The notes under the pieces: model-generated | Seen by the model: the letters and a program-made list of their open reading frames with translations, nothing else | Database searches by the model: none | What the model was told of the DNA's origin: nothing | Shown here: piece by piece, positions 1 through 51,904 of the stretch | How the letters are laid out: each line of letters begins with the position of its first letter | Position numbering within the stretch: position 1 is the first letter of the stretch | Made by a program: the position numbers and the translations under genes | Source: Candidatus Latescibacterota bacterium | GTDB lineage: Bacteria; Latescibacterota; UBA2968; UBA8231 | Length of the DNA stretch: 64,000 nucleotides | NCBI GenBank assembly: GCA_965248265.1 | Contig: CBDFJF010000002.1 | Span: 960,001-1,024,000, forward strand | Direction of reading: 5' to 3'

Positions 1-327
1 GGCGGCTACAACAGCTCCAACACCTCTCACCTGGTGGAGATCTGCTCGCAGGTGATGCCCAGCTACCTGATCGGTGGCCCTGAAGAGCTGCTGTCGCGCG
101 ATCGCATCCGCCATTTCGACATTCACGAGAAGAAGCTCGTGGTTGCCGATGATTGGCTGCCGAGCCAGTTACCGGCGACGATTGCCGTAACTTCGGGCGC
201 CTCGTGCCCGGACGTGCTGATGAACGGAGTGGTGCAGACGATTGCCGGCTATTTCGGCTACGGCGCCGATGACATCGAGACCGGTCTGGATCAGCTCAGC
301 CTGTACGGAGACGCGGCGCCGGCCTGA
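1..327 (+). CDS. ispH: 4-hydroxy-3-methylbut-2-enyl diphosphate reductase, C-terminal part (runs off the window start)
   Basis: Frame from base 1 reads GGYNSSNTSHLVEIC... and contains TSGASCPD; the SSN and GAS(T/C)P motifs are typical of IspH/LytB. Confidence 0.9.
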   Translation, partial: GGYNSSNTSHLVEICSQVMPSYLIGGPEELLSRDRIRHFDIHEKKLVVADDWLPSQLPATIAVTSGASCPDVLMNGVVQTIAGYFGYGADDIETGLDQLSLYGDAAPA

Positions 328-38310: not shown

Positions 38311-39092
38311 CCGACACACCAGAGGACCAGACGCTTCTGTGGTCCGCGTTGTGCCAGAGTCAGCGACTGGAACTGGTCGGCGAGACCACCGGCGGGATGA
38401 TCCACGAATTGAACAACGGACTCAGCGTCGTCAACGGCCTTGTCGAACTGCTGCTGGAAAAGCTCAACGATAGCCCAGACACGGAAAACCTGTCGACCGC
38501 TGGTTCAGAGGATTTGCTCGACGTGGCGCGGCGAGACCTGGCCAAGGTGGTGGTGTGGATGGACTCCAGCATGGCGAGCGCCGAGCGCCTGCTGGCATAC
38601 GCTCACCGGATGACGGGAAGAAACGCAAAATTGGATGTCAATGAACTATGCGCTGCCGCCTTCGATGAGTCACGCTACCGGTGTGGGCGCGAAGGCATCG
38701 ACATGAAGCTGGATTTGGCTGACGGTCTTCCGCGCGTCAATGGTCACGCTGGTCAACTGCTCTCGGTGCTGTCGAATGTGGTGCGCAACAGCAGGGAGGC
38801 CTATGCCCGCGATGCCACCGCGACTGATTCGCGGACAATCCATATATCGACACACATGGACGGTGCCAACGTCGTCATCCACATCGATGACGAAGGACCC
38901 GGCATACCTCAGGGTATGAGTGAGCGTGTCTTCGAGCTGGCTTTTTCAACGAAAACGGACACAGATGCAGTCGTGGGATCGGGTCTGCCCGTTGCCCGGA
39001 TGATGGTACGCTGCCATGGTGGCGATCTGCGCGTGGGGGAGCGCGCCACGGGTACGCGGATTGTCATCGAGCTGCCCAAGGTCAAAGACTGA
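38307..39092 (+). CDS. Histidine kinase, HisKA-HATPase only
   Basis: IHELNN, NVVRNS, DEGPGI, GSGL; no sensor domain. Confidence 0.82.
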   Translation: MTDTPEDQTLLWSALCQSQRLELVGETTGGMIHELNNGLSVVNGLVELLLEKLNDSPDTENLSTAGSEDLLDVARRDLAKVVVWMDSSMASAERLLAYAHRMTGRNAKLDVNELCAAAFDESRYRCGREGIDMKLDLADGLPRVNGHAGQLLSVLSNVVRNSREAYARDATATDSRTIHISTHMDGANVVIHIDDEGPGIPQGMSERVFELAFSTKTDTDAVVGSGLPVARMMVRCHGGDLRVGERATGTRIVIELPKVKD

Positions 39093-39501
39093 GGTTCAGT
39101 CTCCATGGGATCAGCAGACTGGCAGCCAACAGGGTCAACGTGTAAAGGGCAGCAGCCAGCAGGGAATAGAGCTGAACTCGTCCAGCCTTGGCCTTGATGC
39201 GATCGACGAGTTGTTGGTCTTCGATGGGCTCCGTTCCCTGCTCAGTGGTGCGCGCACCGCGCGCGGCGAGAAACACTCAGGTAGAGCTGAAGGCCTGAAA
39301 CAGGAAGAGCATGCACATCCAGGCTGGGATGAAGACGATGACGCGCACCGGCAGCGGGAAATCACTCACCGTGAACAGGCCCATGGAGCCGAGGCAGAAG
39401 AAAAACAGCAGAATTCCAAAAAACACTCTGAACCGACGGCCGTCCTCGGTGATATTCGAGGAGGAGATCTCAGCCAGCGGGGGCCTCCTCCAGTATGGCA
39501 T
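39082..39501 (-). CDS. Candidate membrane selenoprotein (UGA at 39279-39277 read as Sec)
   Basis: ORFs 39277-39501 and 39082-39276 are in one frame separated only by TGA: ...LFQAFSST-U-VFLAARG...; GCGCGC-GGU-GCGCGC hairpin 12 nt downstream; three TM helices; alternative start CTG 39477 after GGAGGAGG. Confidence 0.7.
39250..39264 (-). promoter_or_regulatory. Putative bacterial SECIS hairpin
   Basis: UGA-N12-GCGCGC(GGU)GCGCGC with a possible lower CUC/GAG stem. Confidence 0.6.
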
Positions 39502-40372
39502 CGATGCGGGTCAGCTCATCTTCTGTAAATTCGACCGTTATCGCTCCGAGGTGATCCCGAACCTGCTCCGTATTCTTGGCACCAACGAGCACGCAGGTCA
39601 CGGTCTCCTGTCTCAAGATCCAGGAGATCGCCAGCTGCACCATGTTGATGTCCTTAGCCTGAGCCACTTCAGCGAGCCGATCGGCAACGGCGATCTGGGC
39701 GGCGAAGGTGTCTCCGGCAAATCGGTCCCTGCGTTCATCGCCTTCGGGAAATTCGTGGCCGGGGCGGTAGCGCCCGCTTAACAGCCCCTTGCCCAGCGGA
39801 CTGTGCGCGAGGATGCCGATGCCGTGCTCCTCGCAGTACGGAATATCGGCTTCCTCGATCTTCCGGTTGAACATGTTGTAGGCAGGTTGGTTTGAACTGA
39901 AGGTGGCGATGGCGCTCGCCCGCTGCATTTGATCGGCGTTGAAGTTGGAGACGCCGATGAAGCGCACCTTGCCCTCTTCCTGCAGTTCGGCCATGGCTTC
40001 CATGCTCGCCTCCACCGGGTATTTCGCGTTCCAGCTGTGGATCTGGTAGAGGTCGACGTACTCGACGTCCAGCTTGCGCAGACTATCGTCGATGGACTTG
40101 TGGATGGCCTCGGGAGAGTAGTCGTGGCTGACTTTGGTGGCCAGAAAACAGCGGTCGCGATAGCCGTCCTTGAGGGCCTTGCCGACGCGTTCCTCGCTGA
40201 CGCGATAAGCCTGCGCCGTGTCGACGAGGGTGACGCCCTCATCGATTGCCGTACGCACGATGTCGATGGCCGTCTGTTCATCCATGTCACCCATGCCACC
40301 GCCCAGGGGCCAGGCCCCGAGGCCGATGACGGGTACTTCAGGTCCGTCCGTTCCCAGTTGTCTGTATTCCAT
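39470..40372 (-). CDS. Aldo/keto reductase
   Basis: GLGAW, DTAQAY, LATK, DLYQIH, IGVSNF, HSPLGKGLLSG. Confidence 0.95.
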   Translation of the reverse strand: MEYRQLGTDGPEVPVIGLGAWPLGGGMGDMDEQTAIDIVRTAIDEGVTLVDTAQAYRVSEERVGKALKDGYRDRCFLATKVSHDYSPEAIHKSIDDSLRKLDVEYVDLYQIHSWNAKYPVEASMEAMAELQEEGKVRFIGVSNFNADQMQRASAIATFSSNQPAYNMFNRKIEEADIPYCEEHGIGILAHSPLGKGLLSGRYRPGHEFPEGDERRDRFAGDTFAAQIAVADRLAEVAQAKDINMVQLAISWILRQETVTCVLVGAKNTEQVRDHLGAITVEFTEDELTRIDAILEEAPAG

Positions 40373-40403: not shown

Positions 40404-41132
40404 TCAGAGTGTTAGGGTAATTTTAAGCCAATCTTCGAGCAGAAACGATATGCGGCCGATGAGCAGGGACAGGCGTGCCATGATGGTATAGCCGAAGGAG
40501 GCGCCGAAGGCGACCATCAGGAAGTAGATGCCGACTTTGGAAACGCCACCCACGATGCCGGTATGCTCCACAGAAAAGAAGAAATAAACCAGCACAGACA
40601 CCACACCGATGAGGACGACGAGAACGTCGAACCCTTCCATCGTCAGCGATAGCGGCCGCAACGTCGGTTCGATCTGCTGCAGGATGAAGGAAGAGATATA
40701 GCGCGGGATGGTCAATCCGGCGCCGAAACCGACGAAAAATGCGAAGGAAATTCGGCTCAACCACGCCCAGCGGCGGGAAAAGCGGGTCAGCATTAACACG
40801 CCCAGGATGGTGGGTATGAGAAGCAGCCACTTGGTGTGCGCCTCCGCCTCTTCCTTCATGAAGACGGGTTCGATGAGCATGCCGAAGAAGCCGCCGAACC
40901 AGTACTGGCCGAAGATGTAGGCGGCAGCGACGCCGACGTAGATGTGCTCGGCGAACTTGAAGAGAGGATTGTCCTTGTAGAGGAAGCTGTATATCAGCAG
41001 CGTGAGTCCGGCTCCCACGATGATACCGAAACCAGTCCAATCCGCCTGCAGCCGCCCCGTACCAAGGAAGACGACGTTGAGTGCCGCAAAGGCCAGGATG
41101 AGGCCGCCAAAGATGTAGCTGTCTCTGCTCAT
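40404..41132 (-). CDS. Uncharacterised multi-TM protein of the GlmL/DUF6754 cluster
   Basis: About 7 TM helices; SFLYKDNPLFKFAEH, YFFFS, FGASFGYTIMARLSLLIGR. Confidence 0.8.
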   Translation of the reverse strand: MSRDSYIFGGLILAFAALNVVFLGTGRLQADWTGFGIIVGAGLTLLIYSFLYKDNPLFKFAEHIYVGVAAAYIFGQYWFGGFFGMLIEPVFMKEEAEAHTKWLLLIPTILGVLMLTRFSRRWAWLSRISFAFFVGFGAGLTIPRYISSFILQQIEPTLRPLSLTMEGFDVLVVLIGVVSVLVYFFFSVEHTGIVGGVSKVGIYFLMVAFGASFGYTIMARLSLLIGRISFLLEDWLKITLTL

Positions 41133-41956
41133 GCGGTAGACGACCTGCGAGACAGGAAGAAGGTGATGTTGGCCAGCAGGATGAAGGCGATGATGATGAC
41201 GTGGGTGACTGATTGCGGTCGCATGCCCGACGAGGCTTTATCCGCCCGCCCGACTAAACTCTCGTATTCAGCGGCGCCGGCGAGGCCACCGATCATCCCT
41301 ACCATTTGGCCCGACTGGATGAAGGGAAACAGGTCAGGAGCCATGACGGCCGTGCATCCCCCTGCAAACGGGAATTTATAGCGCTCCTGCCCGTAGGGTA
41401 TCCACCAGTGGTCGATCGATTCACCGGCCGCGAGATCGAAGACGAAATCGAAGTCCGTGAGGCTGTGAACATCGCGGGTGATCGCCAAGGTGTCGGCGAG
41501 GGCGCCGAAGTTGTCCGTGGGATAGGTATTGTGAAAGTCCTGCCCCATACTCAAGATGACGGCGTAACCCCCTGGTTTGAACCCCATCAAGGCGTAGTCG
41601 ACGCCATATTTCCGGTCGGATTCCGCCCCGACCTCCTCCAATGCCGCCTGTGCCAGGCCGACGGCATCCGGCCAAAGACAGACGGCCACGACTTCGATCT
41701 CACGCTCGAACAGGTGTCGTAGCAGAGCGTGCGCCATTGGCTGCAATTCCGGTTCCGACCCTCCGCCATAGGCGAAGGAGAGCAGGACTTTGCCATCTTT
41801 CACAGCGGCGACGCGCTCGATCTGCTCATACACGGCACGCACGTTGTCCCTGGCCTGGATCGGGAATGAGAACTCCATCAGCAGCGGCACGGTAACACCG
41901 ACAAGGACGAACAGGAAGATGATGCGTCGATCGAAATTCATCAGGCGCTCGATCAT
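41129..41956 (-). CDS. Uncharacterised membrane-anchored alpha/beta protein of the cluster
   Basis: N- and C-terminal TM helices around a soluble domain; ELQPM, SGQMVGMIGGLAGAAEYE. Confidence 0.8.
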   Translation of the reverse strand: MIERLMNFDRRIIFLFVLVGVTVPLLMEFSFPIQARDNVRAVYEQIERVAAVKDGKVLLSFAYGGGSEPELQPMAHALLRHLFEREIEVVAVCLWPDAVGLAQAALEEVGAESDRKYGVDYALMGFKPGGYAVILSMGQDFHNTYPTDNFGALADTLAITRDVHSLTDFDFVFDLAAGESIDHWWIPYGQERYKFPFAGGCTAVMAPDLFPFIQSGQMVGMIGGLAGAAEYESLVGRADKASSGMRPQSVTHVIIIAFILLANITFFLSRRSSTA

Positions 41957-50848: not shown

Positions 50849-51904
50849 GTGGCACTATTTTCCAAGAAAAAGACGCTGACCGGACTCGCCAAGACCTGCG
50901 GGTGAGCAGCCAAGGTGAGTCCGGTCGGACTCGACAAGCTGCTCCAGGCATTACCAAAGAAAGTCGACCCGAATCTACTGGTGGGTTTCGAGACGAGCGA
51001 TGACGCGGGTGTGTACCGATTGACCGACGATGTGGCCCTCGTCGTCACCGCCGACATCATCACTCCACCGGTAGACGACCCCTTCGTGTTCGGGCAGATC
51101 GGCGCCGCGAACTCAATCAGCGACGTGTACGCCATGGGCGGCAAACCAGTCACCTGCCTGAATCTGCTCGGTTTTCCTACGACCGAATTGGGGCCGGAGG
51201 TTCTGCAGGGGATTGTCGAGGGGGCGCTGACTAAGATCACGGAAGCCGAGGCGGTCCTGGCGGGGGGGCACACGACGGAAGATGAGGAGCCCAAGTTCGG
51301 CCTGGCAGTGACCGGAGTCGTGCATCCGAAAAAATACTGGCACAACAAGGGGGCCAGGCAGGGTGAGGTGTTGATTCTGACCAAGCGAATCGGCAGCGGC
51401 GTCTTGTTCAATGCCAATCTCAAGGGCTTGGTGCCGGAGGCGGCGATGAAGGCATGCATCGATTCGCTGATAACGCTGAACAAGTCGGCGGCGGAGGTGC
51501 TCCAGCACTACGACGTCAGTGCGGTCACGGACATAACCGGATTCGGCCTTGCCGGCCACGCTCTGGAAATGGCCAAGGGGTCGGATGTGACGCTGGAGAT
51601 CGACATCGATGCGATTCCGGTGATGGCAGAAGCTGCGAACATGTACGACAAGGGGGTTACTACCGGGTCCAATTTGAACAACCGCGCCCTGATCACCGGC
51701 CATACCCATTTCGATCGCGAGCTGCCCGGCAACAGCGGGGAGATTTTCGTGGACCCGCAGACCAGCGGCGGTTTACTGGCGGCGCTACCGGAGTCCCAGG
51801 CACAGGAGGCCCTTAGTAGAATGCACGACGCTGGGTTGGACGCCGCCTGCATCATTGGGCATGTTCGTCCACCCTCGGCGCCAGACTATCTGGTCTTCAA
51901 ATAA
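50849..51904 (+). CDS. selD: Selenophosphate synthetase, Sec-containing (SenC/SelD)
   Basis: GTG 50849, in-frame TGA at codon 19 (50903-50905) in TCG-U-AAK, the SelD active-site motif; DDAGVY, NSISDVYAMGG, TDITGFGLAGH, DPQTSGGLL. Confidence 0.95.
50917..50932 (+). promoter_or_regulatory. Bacterial SECIS hairpin of selD
   Basis: UGA-N11-GAGUCC(GGUC)GGACUC, perfect 6-bp stem with G-first loop. Confidence 0.8.

What the first reader, a model, noticed from the sequence alone, without database searches (positions are those of the whole stretch)
39082..39501. Hidden membrane selenoprotein: in-frame UGA with a SECIS matching that of selD
Seen: two abutting same-frame ORFs are separated by one TGA. 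Readthrough gives a coherent 131-139-aa, 3-TM protein (NI...GRRFR-TM-TM-FQAFSST-U-VFLAARG...-TM). The hairpin GCGCGC(GGU)GCGCGC begins 12 nt after UGA; the selD hairpin begins 11 nt after UGA with loop GGUC. A strong RBS couples it to the aldo/keto reductase. Known: bacterial SECIS elements lie just 3' of UGA with a G-led loop, and the Sec-type selD implies Sec decoding in this organism. From recall, unverified: homologues read FQA..xTCV.LAARG. Inference: a little-known or undescribed selenoprotein with a single Sec at the membrane interface and no CxxU motif.
Basis: partly seen in the sequence, partly recalled or inferred. Interest (0 to 1): 0.88.

Follow-up and report, generated by a model that had tools for sequence, protein, structure and literature searches.

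The report
Undescribed membrane selenoprotein family gene
What looks like two tiny neighbouring genes is almost certainly one gene for a small three-helix membrane protein whose in-frame TGA encodes selenocysteine, and it belongs to a widespread, unnamed protein family that I did not find in a 2026 inventory of bacterial selenoproteins.

Summary
On the minus strand, 39085-39501 reads as one 139-codon frame with a single TGA (39279-39277, residue 75).

The TGA aligns with a near-invariant Cys (FQA...T[C/U]V.LAARG) in a family of about 120-aa proteins: 514 clusters at E<=1e-3. Similarity continues on both sides of it.

TGA sits in the same column in 8 of the 28 genomes of the phylum that carry the family, and in 70 of 78 in-family metagenome loci fetched with a codon-neutral pattern.

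A GC-rich hairpin with a GG(U) loop at about +22 to +24 follows TGA:
- 8 of 8 TGA forms against 4 of 20 Cys forms in genomes;
- 70 of 70 against 1 of 8 in the metagenome set, scored with a rule fixed beforehand.

The genome has selA, selB, tRNA-Sec and a Sec-type selD. dN/dS after the TGA is 0.2-0.5.

No Pfam or NCBIfam model matches, and none of the 119 families in a 2026 review fits. The closest known relative, weakly supported, is the YgaP-like TM domain (DUF2892).

One relative clade fuses the domain to DedA and to a rhodanese with a second Sec. This suggests, by inference only, a membrane-face thiol/selenol in sulfur or selenium transfer or redox chemistry.

Verdict: a real selenoprotein gene of an apparently undescribed family. 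Function is untested.

The parts
39085..39501 (-). Coding sequence of the membrane selenoprotein. It is 139 codons from ATG 39501; an alternative start at CTG 39477 would give 131 codons. The stop is TGA at 39084-39082.
   Evidence: Family HMM match with 1 internal TGA, E 2.6e-68. AF2 model pLDDT 93.6.
39277..39279 (-). In-frame TGA read as selenocysteine (residue 75), at the cytoplasmic end of helix 2.
   Evidence: It aligns with a near-invariant Cys in homologues. The same column is TGA in 8 of 28 family-bearing phylum genomes and in 70 of 78 in-family metagenome loci.
39250..39264 (-). SECIS-like hairpin GCGCGC-GGU-GCGCGC: +16..+30 from the U of UGA, with the loop at +22..24.
   Evidence: Synonymous-recoding P = 0.03. 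The same placement is found in 70 of 70 TGA forms against 1 of 8 Cys forms in metagenome loci. The Ala codon is GCG in 66 of 66 distinct Sec forms against 2 of 7 Cys forms.
39484..39491 (-). Shine-Dalgarno-like GGAGGAGG, inside the end of the reductase gene. It lies 6 nt upstream of CTG 39477 and downstream of ATG 39501.
   Evidence: Read directly. Which start it serves is not resolved.
39470..40372 (-). Aldo/keto reductase gene immediately upstream on the same strand. It overlaps the selenoprotein frame by 32 nt if the start is ATG, or by 8 nt if the start is CTG.
   Evidence: PF00248, E 6.9e-79. The same neighbour type occurs in 4 related loci: L032, L038, L039 and L040.
50876..51799 (+). 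Sec-type selD (selenophosphate synthetase), with TGA at 50903-50905 and a SECIS with a GGUC loop. It serves as an internal positive control for Sec decoding.
   Evidence: TIGR00476, 352 bits, 1 TGA.

Best explanation
Window 39085-39501 (minus strand) is one gene. Its UGA at codon 75 is most likely decoded as selenocysteine by SelB and tRNA-Sec. The guide is a short GC-rich hairpin that starts 12 nt downstream and presents GGU in its loop at +22..24.

The product is a small inner-membrane protein. The AF2 model, together with the positive-inside rule (an inference), gives this layout:
- a cytoplasmic N-terminal NI..G.R.R segment;
- a helical hairpin (helices 1 and 2), with Sec at the cytoplasmic end of helix 2;
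- a short helix plus beta-hairpin (LAARG.R..E.G.E.I.D) in the cytoplasm;
- a long third helix back through the membrane.

It belongs to a widespread unnamed family in which this position is Cys or Sec and nearly never anything else, so the residue is the functional centre.

Most likely role (inferred, about 35%): a membrane-face nucleophile that accepts or passes on sulfur or selenium (persulfide or selenosulfide), working with rhodanese-type transferases. This would parallel the pairing of rhodanese with the YgaP-like TM domain.

What is shown: the recoding signature, the family, the machinery and the fusion architecture. What is inferred: the topology and the chemistry.
For: Sec/Cys pairing
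- Three close homologues (80, 54 and 49% identity) have Cys at U75, and similarity runs the whole length.
- A profile search finds 514 clusters at E<=1e-3. The consensus is FQA...TCV.LAARG and Cys is conserved in at least 90% of columns.

Recurrence of TGA in that exact column
- 8 of the 28 genomes that carry the family, out of 168 phylum genomes searched.
- 70 of 78 in-family loci from a metagenome scan whose pattern allowed TGA, TGC and TGT alike.
- Public protein sets hold halves that end just before, or start just after, this column.

The part after the TGA is translated
- dN/dS is 0.21-0.51 in the C-half against 0.17-0.67 in the N-half, in 7 pairs of TGA forms.

Hairpin
- A rule fixed required a stem of at least 5 bp and a 3-7 nt loop with GG or GU at +20..25. 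It is met by 8 of 8 TGA forms against 4 of 20 Cys forms in genomes.
- Applied unchanged to loci fetched later, it is met by 70 of 70 against 1 of 8.
- Synonymous sites are frozen in Sec forms: GCG in 66 of 66 against 2 of 7, and CGC in 65 of 66.
- Recoding nulls give P = 0.0024-0.18 per lineage.

Machinery
- selD 352 bits with TGA, selA 561 bits, selB 333 bits, tRNA-Sec 68.9 bits with anticodon tca.
- selA is present in all 28 family-bearing genomes.

Function clue
- 19 of the 78 metagenome loci fuse the domain to a VTT/DedA domain and to a rhodanese of the LYCAU selenoprotein type with a second TGA.
- PF11127 is the commonest weak Pfam hit (7 of 67 members). hhalign aligns the R..R..G and FQx...C motifs.
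Against: - No experimental evidence of selenium incorporation exists.
- This gene's own hairpin is a 6-bp GC stem with a 3-nt loop. It is no more stable than dinucleotide shuffles (z +1.67), and it partly follows from the Ala-Arg-Gly-Ala-Arg codons.
- MFE over +10..+45 does not separate Sec forms from Cys forms (Mann-Whitney P = 0.11).
- 4 of 20 Cys forms, all in one genus, also show the hairpin.
- Kin are not independent, and the hairpin rule was made after seeing the first 28 sequences.
- The 70:8 ratio probably overstates the Sec share of the family, because the SECIS constraint itself keeps LAARG, which the pattern required.
- The functional reading rests on one fusion clade and a weak profile match (hhalign probability 10-21%).
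- Gene neighbours are heterogeneous: alpha/beta hydrolase, aldo/keto reductase, TraB/GumN, CBS, Rieske.
- The PDB fold search gave 0 hits at E<=1e-3.
Confidence: 0.85

Rival explanations
1. Split gene. Translation stops at TGA and restarts at the adjacent GTG, giving two small membrane proteins of 74 and 64 aa that work together without the Cys/Sec residue.
For: In the window, TGA is followed directly by GTG, a possible start codon. Gene callers in public data predict the halves as separate proteins.
Against: - The break falls exactly on the most conserved residue, and it does so in 8 genomes and 70 metagenome loci.
- In 28 of 66 distinct Sec forms the next codon is GTC or GTA, which is no start codon.
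- There is no Shine-Dalgarno motif before the GTG.
- The frozen synonymous sites and the hairpin are unexplained by a split.
Confidence: 0.04
2. UGA is read through without selenium, for example by near-cognate Cys or Trp tRNA, so the protein is full length but is not a selenoprotein.
For: Nothing here measures selenium. Low-level UGA readthrough is known in bacteria (own knowledge).
Against: - A complete Sec machinery is present.
- A hairpin in SECIS position with a GG(U) loop tracks TGA rather than Cys codons: 70 of 70 against 1 of 8.
- TGA is used as an ordinary stop by the reductase and by this gene itself.
Confidence: 0.05
3. Pseudogene or assembly error: a Cys codon (TGC or TGT) mutated or misread to TGA in this genome.
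For: A single base change turns TGC or TGT into TGA.
Against: - The same TGA occurs in 7 other genomes and 70 metagenome loci.
- Contigs of 4 runs show no other letter at that place, though they come from one sample and are not independent.
- There is purifying selection downstream of the TGA.
Confidence: 0.01
4. A rival about function, given that it is a selenoprotein. The Sec/Cys could be a redox or metal(loid)-binding site instead: a membrane-face peroxide or quinone reductase, a sensor, or a ligand for a soft metal. It would then not be a sulfur/selenium relay.
For: - Most known selenoproteins are redox enzymes (PMC13188914, section 7, as read).
- Many Cys forms carry a second Cys 10 residues later, which could serve as a resolving or chelating partner.
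- Reductase, MsrB and Rieske genes occur nearby in some loci.
Against: - Sec forms lack the second Cys and have Arg there.
- There is no thioredoxin-like fold and no CxxU motif.
- The only domain fusion found is with a rhodanese and DedA.
Confidence: 0.3

Closest known systems
Bacterial SelB/SECIS-dependent selenoprotein genes; type example E. coli fdhF, and here the genome's own selD
   Same: - The in-frame UGA aligns with Cys in homologues.
- A stem-loop starts about 10-12 nt after the UGA, with G and U in the apical loop at about +22..24. selD has GGUC at +21..24 and this gene has GGU at +22..24.
- selA, selB, selC and selD are present.
   Different: - The hairpin is a minimal 6-bp all-GC stem with a triloop and no lower stem, whereas selD has a two-part 14-bp structure.
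- The E. coli details (minimal upper stem-loop 11 nt from the UGA; G23 and U24 essential) are recalled, not tested here.
YgaP-like transmembrane domain (Pfam PF11127, DUF2892)
   Same: - An N-terminal basic motif (R..R...G) is followed by a two-helix hairpin and then FQ[AS]...C, with a conserved Cys just after helix 2. hhalign aligns exactly these features, Cys on Cys/Sec.
- It is the commonest weak Pfam hit in the family: 7 of 67 members.
- In E. coli YgaP the domain is joined to a rhodanese (recalled). Here one clade of the family is also joined to a rhodanese.
   Different: - The window protein has no PF11127 hit at E<=1.
- hhalign probability is only 10-21%.
- This family has an extra cytoplasmic helix/beta-hairpin module (LAARG.R..D.G.E.I.D) and a third helix, about 120 aa against about 65 aa.
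- Membership is not shown.
[quoted passage not shown]
   Same: In 19 of the 78 metagenome loci the family domain sits in one reading frame with a rhodanese. That rhodanese carries TGA in LYCSU and has its own hairpin.
   Different: - This applies to fused relatives only; the window gene has no rhodanese part.
- The fused rhodanese scores 80.5 bits, below the model's cut-off of 115.
Known integral-membrane selenoproteins in the 2026 inventory: MerT-like (PF02411), YeeE/YedE (PF04143), SaoP (NF040733), SO_0444 family (NF033936)
   Same: They are polytopic membrane proteins with Sec/Cys at a functional position (PMC13188914 Table 1, read).
   Different: None of these models matches the window protein or 7 other family members. 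Size, topology and motif (TUV.LAARG) all differ.

Membership tests
Bacterial selenoprotein gene (computational criteria as used in PMC12013277 and PMC13188914) | In-frame TGA aligned with Cys in homologues, with conserved flanks on both sides | tested here: met
   Cys is conserved in at least 90% of columns across 67 sequences; 20 Cys forms and 8 TGA forms in genomes are aligned in register.
Bacterial selenoprotein gene (computational criteria as used in PMC12013277 and PMC13188914) | TGA-containing homologues in other Sec-using organisms | tested here: met
   7 other genomes, all with selA, and 70 metagenome loci.
Bacterial selenoprotein gene (computational criteria as used in PMC12013277 and PMC13188914) | SECIS-like stem-loop just downstream of UGA with G in the apical loop | tested here: met
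   A home-made rule was used, not bSECISearch. The single hairpin is not significant against dinucleotide shuffles; the family-wide contrast is 70 of 70 against 1 of 8.
Bacterial selenoprotein gene (computational criteria as used in PMC12013277 and PMC13188914) | selA, selB, selC (tRNA-Sec) and selD in the genome | tested here: met
Bacterial selenoprotein gene (computational criteria as used in PMC12013277 and PMC13188914) | Selenium shown in the protein (75Se labelling or mass spectrometry) | not testable with these tools
No RNA run was listed either.
YgaP-like_TM (PF11127 / DUF2892) | Match to the Pfam model at or above its gathering score (25.3 bits) | tested here: not met
   The window protein has no hit at E<=1. 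7 of 67 family members have weak hits, best E 0.0023.
YgaP-like_TM (PF11127 / DUF2892) | Profile-profile homology to bona fide DUF2892 proteins | tested here: inconclusive
   hhalign probability 10.5% (6-sequence profile) and 21.3% (28-sequence profile). The alignment is sensible (R..R..G, two helices, FQx...C) but below any accepted threshold.
Any of the 119 selenoprotein families or subfamilies of PMC13188914 Table 1 | Match to the domain model listed for the family (Pfam, NCBIfam or TIGRFAM) | tested here: not met
   There is no relevant Pfam or NCBIfam hit for the window protein, for 67 members against Pfam, or for 7 members against NCBIfam. Entries listed with cd, PTHR or no identifier could not be scanned. 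Supplements were not seen.

The most novel reading that the evidence does not exclude
The family may be the selenium-using branch of a YgaP/DUF2892-like superfamily of membrane 'thiol hooks'. In this reading, a single Sec or Cys at the cytoplasmic membrane face receives sulfur or selenium from a rhodanese and hands it to, or takes it from, a membrane process. The DedA-type fusion partner hints at such a process. That would define a new membrane-coupled sulfur/selenium trafficking step and would give a first function to the conserved Cys of DUF2892 proteins. In the fused relatives, two selenocysteines would act in series within one polypeptide.
Probability: 0.2. Interest if true: 0.8.

Novelty: new member of a known kind. 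Interest (0 to 1): 0.62.

Why it matters
- It adds an apparently unlisted family to the bacterial selenoproteome. The family is unusual in being a small integral membrane protein with a lone Sec and no thioredoxin-like fold.
- The family is common: 514 clusters at 50% identity. In the soil and sediment contigs sampled, the LAARG-type members are mostly Sec forms, so current annotation cuts them into two 'hypothetical' pieces and selenium use in these habitats is under-counted.
- The near-invariant Cys/Sec marks the active centre of a protein family with no known function.
- The DedA-rhodanese double-Sec fusion gives a concrete, testable lead.
- A family model flagged for selenocysteine would repair many annotations.

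Tried and rejected
- Pfam and NCBIfam scans of the window protein gave only noise: CHZ at E 0.016 and HtpX at E 0.075.
- The sequence search of solved structures gave nothing below E 0.13. The Foldseek search of the PDB gave 0 hits at E<=1e-3.
The natural Cys homologue P0004 returned only unnamed clusters, plus a fold-level look-alike in the fungal RAX1_C domain that I did not pursue.
- The search for related loci in genome contigs returned 1 locus, because its patterns were narrow. The same tool on metagenome contigs with the 67-row alignment failed for lack of a conserved stretch, so I used a degenerate DNA pattern instead.
- The overall folding energy of +10..+45 does not separate Sec forms from Cys forms (P = 0.11), so I used hairpin placement instead.
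- Neighbour-gene clustering was confounded by shadow ORFs in GC-rich DNA and, once cleaned, showed no partner common to all lineages.
- No RNA holder was listed among public runs.
- Earlier findings of this scan hold nothing on this family.
- Two literature searches, for selenoprotein + DedA + rhodanese and for YgaP/DUF2892 + selenocysteine, found nothing relevant. One search failed on term syntax.
- I ran no complex prediction, because I claim no binding.
Full report
**Observation**

On the minus strand, the ORF listing shows two ORFs in one frame. One runs 39277..39501 (74 aa, ending in TGA at 39279-39277). The other runs 39082..39276 (64 aa, starting with the GTG directly after that TGA). 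Reading TGA as U gives a single 139-residue product, MPYW...FQAFSST-U-VFLAARGARTTEQGTEPIED...LLIPWRLNLSL, which ends at a second TGA at 39084-39082.

The sequence after the UGA is GUGUUUCUCGCC GCGCGC GGU GCGCGC. That is a 6-bp stem starting 12 nt after the UGA, with the loop at +22..24.

The gene upstream on the same strand is an aldo/keto reductase (PF00248, E 7e-79). A GGAGGAGG motif lies at 39491-39484. It is downstream of ATG 39501 and 6 nt before CTG 39477, so the start, and with it the length of 139 or 131 aa, is open. A relative's N-half begins with the same MP.WRRPPLAEISSSNIT (P0010), which favours the ATG. The closest full-length homologue starts 11 residues later.

**Is the organism able to decode Sec?**

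The window's genome (7.3 Mb, 2 contigs) has the full machinery:
- selD at 352 bits with one internal TGA; it lies in this window, with the TGA at 50903-50905;
- selA at 561 bits;
- selB at 333 bits;
- a tRNA-Sec at 68.9 bits, which ARAGORN calls tRNA-SeC with anticodon tca.

The selD UGA is followed by a two-part stem with apical loop GGUC at +21..24 (z -3.58). TGA also serves as an ordinary stop here, both for the reductase and for this gene, so no genome-wide reassignment is involved.

**Homologues**

A word-indexed protein search found three full-length relatives at 80, 54 and 49% identity. All three have Cys at position 75 and are similar along the whole length.

A profile search of 1.84 billion representatives found 514 clusters at E<=1e-3 and 107 at E<=1e-10, mostly 115-135 aa. 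A 67-sequence alignment gives the consensus NIGP..RR.R...G ... P...RL..F.P.W...LG.FQA...TCV.LAARG.R..D.G.E.I.D. Residues N16, R25, G29, R53, Q69, C75 and A79 are at least 90% conserved.

Among the hits are proteins of 63-74 aa that end ...ST just before the Cys column or begin M[FL]LAARG just after it (P0010, P0014, P0019, P0059, P0065, P0074). That is what gene callers produce from a TGA at that column. Every source name returned is 'hypothetical protein'.

**TGA recurs in the same column**

Searching all 168 genomes of the phylum with the family profile gave matches in 28. Relatives' names returned by tools point to the phylum Latescibacterota.

Translating the 28 matches in frame shows TGA exactly at the Cys column in 8 genomes: the window's own, three genomes of one genus, one of another, two of a third, and one from another family. 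The other 20 have TGC or TGT there. All 28 have selA, as do 131 of the 168 genomes, so co-occurrence is consistent with the reading but does not discriminate.

I then scanned metagenome contigs with a degenerate pattern for QAxxxT-[TGA/TGC/TGT]-VxLAARG. Of these, 78 match an HMM built from the 67-sequence alignment. Among the 78, 70 carry TGA and 8 carry a Cys codon.

This ratio should not be taken as the Sec share of the whole family. The SECIS constraint itself preserves LAARG, which the pattern demanded, and most full-length clusters in the protein library are Cys forms.

A quick maximum-likelihood tree was built from 104 rows, 76 Sec and 28 Cys; two short rows were dropped. It needs at least 9 Sec/Cys changes, of which at least 2 are forced by well-supported branches. 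The window's gene sits in a supported clade of 20 rows (15 Cys, 5 Sec).

**Is the downstream half translated?**

In seven pairs of TGA-bearing genes, dN/dS after the TGA is 0.21-0.51, much as before it (0.17-0.67). The frame stays open for 52-65 codons and ends where the Cys forms end.

**The hairpin**

Taken alone, the window's hairpin is unimpressive. Dinucleotide shuffles of this GC-rich stretch fold as well or better (z +1.67). The palindromic peptide Ala-Arg-Gly-Ala-Arg favours GCGCGC..GCGCGC. MFE over +10..+45 does not separate Sec forms from Cys forms (P = 0.11).

Placement does separate them. After inspecting the 28 genome sequences I fixed a rule: a perfect stem of at least 5 bp with at most one G-U pair, starting at +11..21, and a loop of 3-7 nt with GG or GU beginning at +20..25.
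- In genomes, 8 of 8 TGA forms meet the rule against 4 of 20 Cys forms, and all four of those are in one genus.
- Applied unchanged to the metagenome loci fetched afterwards, 70 of 70 TGA forms meet it against 1 of 8 Cys forms, even though all of them encode LAARG.

Synonymous sites are frozen in the 66 distinct Sec sequences. The second Ala codon is GCG in 66 of 66, against 2 of 7 Cys forms. The Arg three codons later is CGC in 65 of 66, and the intervening codon ends in G in 65 of 66.

Recoding each peptide with local codon usage gives a stem at least as long as the observed one with these probabilities:
- P = 0.03 for the window;
- 0.014-0.088 for the three-genome genus;
- 0.083, 0.0024 and 0.07-0.18 for the other lineages.

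Lineages with other residues keep a hairpin at the same place with different bases: ALRGTRN uses UUGCGUG/CACGCAA, and AASGRRN uses GCCUC/GAGGC. Many metagenome forms have the loop GGUC(U), like selD.

**Alternatives**

- Stop and restart at the adjacent GTG. This is contradicted by GTC or GTA at that codon in 28 of 66 distinct Sec forms, and by the break falling on the one invariant residue.
- Sequencing error or pseudogene. This is excluded by the recurrence, by purifying selection, and by contigs of four runs (one sample, not independent) that carry the TGA with no variant.
- Selenium-independent readthrough. This cannot be excluded without experiment, but it does not explain why the hairpin tracks TGA.

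**What the protein looks like**

AlphaFold2 on the 67-row alignment gives pLDDT 93.6 and pTM 0.83. It shows:
- helix 19-45;
- helix 50-72;
- U75 in the turn after helix 2;
- a short helix at 76-81;
- a beta-hairpin at 83-86 and 89-92;
- a long helix at 96-130.

By the positive-inside rule (an inference), the basic N-terminus and the AARGAR segment are cytoplasmic. That puts Sec at the cytoplasmic membrane face. No solved structure resembles the model (0 Foldseek hits at E<=1e-3; the sequence search is also negative).

**Closest known family**

Pfam and NCBIfam give nothing for the window protein, nothing for 7 other members against NCBIfam, and no Pfam family above noise for the 67 members. 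The commonest weak Pfam hit across those 67 is YgaP-like_TM (PF11127, DUF2892), in 7 members with best E 0.0023.

Profile-profile comparison with DUF2892 proteins taken from related genomes and from the protein collection aligns the R..R..G motif, both helices and FQ[AS]...C, with Cys on Cys/Sec. The probability is only 10.5% and 21.3%. I treat this as a lead, not as membership.

**A functional clue**

Nineteen of the 78 metagenome loci form one tight clade (support 100) in which the frame continues past the third helix. For example, L074:9098-10453 encodes 452 aa made of:
- this domain, with U69;
- a VTT/DedA domain (PF09335, E 4e-17);
- a rhodanese (PF00581, E 2e-12). Its active-site loop reads LYCS-TGA-PNEATS, and the domain continues in frame after that TGA, which has its own hairpin.

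The best NCBIfam match of that rhodanese is NF041203, 'rhodanese-related (seleno)protein' of the LYCAU type, at 80.5 bits, below its cut-off of 115. These relatives are therefore probable double selenoproteins.

Together with the YgaP resemblance (rhodanese plus DUF2892 in E. coli YgaP, recalled), this makes a role in sulfur or selenium transfer at the membrane my preferred reading, at roughly one in three. A redox or metal-binding role is the main rival. Many Cys forms carry a second Cys 10 residues on, which Sec forms replace by Arg.

Gene neighbourhoods do not decide the matter:
- an alpha/beta hydrolase lies directly upstream in about a dozen loci of the phylum;
- an Ig-domain protein of 495 aa lies upstream in eight loci;
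- aldo/keto reductases lie nearby in the window, in four related loci and in three metagenome loci;
- other lineages have TraB/GumN, CBS, DUF520, Rieske and MsrB genes nearby.

**Novelty**

I read the whole of Table 1 of the 2026 review PMC13188914, which lists 119 prokaryotic selenoprotein families or subfamilies with domain identifiers. None corresponds:
- the membrane entries (MerT-like, YeeE/YedE, SaoP, SO_0444) have models that do not match;
- the 'hypothetical' entries carry NCBIfam models that do not match either.

I also read passages of the deep-Sep paper PMC12013277 and of the bioRxiv preprint 10.1101/2022.07.06.499078; neither mentions such a family. Full-text searches for selenoprotein + DedA + rhodanese and for YgaP/DUF2892 + selenocysteine found nothing relevant.

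Supplementary tables were closed, and entries with cd, PTHR or no identifier could not be scanned. The family may therefore appear somewhere under another label.

**Verdict**

This is a genuine, mis-split selenoprotein gene by every computational criterion in current use. It belongs to a widespread family that appears to be undescribed as a selenoprotein and has no assigned function. The decoding mechanism is ordinary. The protein family, its membrane setting and the double-Sec DedA-rhodanese fusion are the new parts.

Noticed in passing
L074:9098-10453 (+); likewise L067, L068, L093, L098, L106, L120, L137 and others: A probable double selenoprotein in metagenome contigs. The family domain (Sec 1), a VTT/DedA domain and a rhodanese lie in one frame. 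The rhodanese has a second in-frame TGA in LYCSU and its own downstream hairpin. 19 of the 78 in-family loci form this clade.
   Followed up: partly
window 50876-51799 (+), TGA at 50903-50905: Sec-type selD. Its SECIS has a lower stem starting at the UGA and a 7-bp upper stem with loop GGUC (z -3.58).
   Followed up: yes
L044, L045, L048, L049 (genomes G150, G151, G153, G149): Four of the five Cys forms of one genus still carry a SECIS-like hairpin after the TGC/TGT codon. This may be a trace of a recent Sec-to-Cys change, or simply the Ala-Arg-Gly-x-Arg codons.
   Followed up: no
Family alignment; proteins such as P0020, P0024, P0044, P0058: Many Cys forms have a second Cys 10 residues after the conserved one (TCV..A.RG.C). 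All Sec forms seen have Arg there instead.
   Followed up: no
L026, L030, L032, L033, L036, L048, L049, L051, L052, L053 and others: An alpha/beta-hydrolase gene (PF00561) lies directly upstream of the family gene on the same strand in about a dozen loci of the phylum. In the window it is missing, and the aldo/keto reductase that precedes it elsewhere abuts the selenoprotein gene.
   Followed up: partly
window 40404-41956 (-): Two adjacent membrane-protein-like ORFs (242 and 275 aa) upstream of the reductase have no Pfam match at E<=1e-3.
   Followed up: no
ESM Atlas result for homologue P0004: The Atlas model of a Cys homologue resembles the C-terminal three-helix domain (RAX1_C, PF27892) of fungal RGS-domain proteins, with TM 0.82 by query. 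This may be a generic helical look-alike.
   Followed up: no
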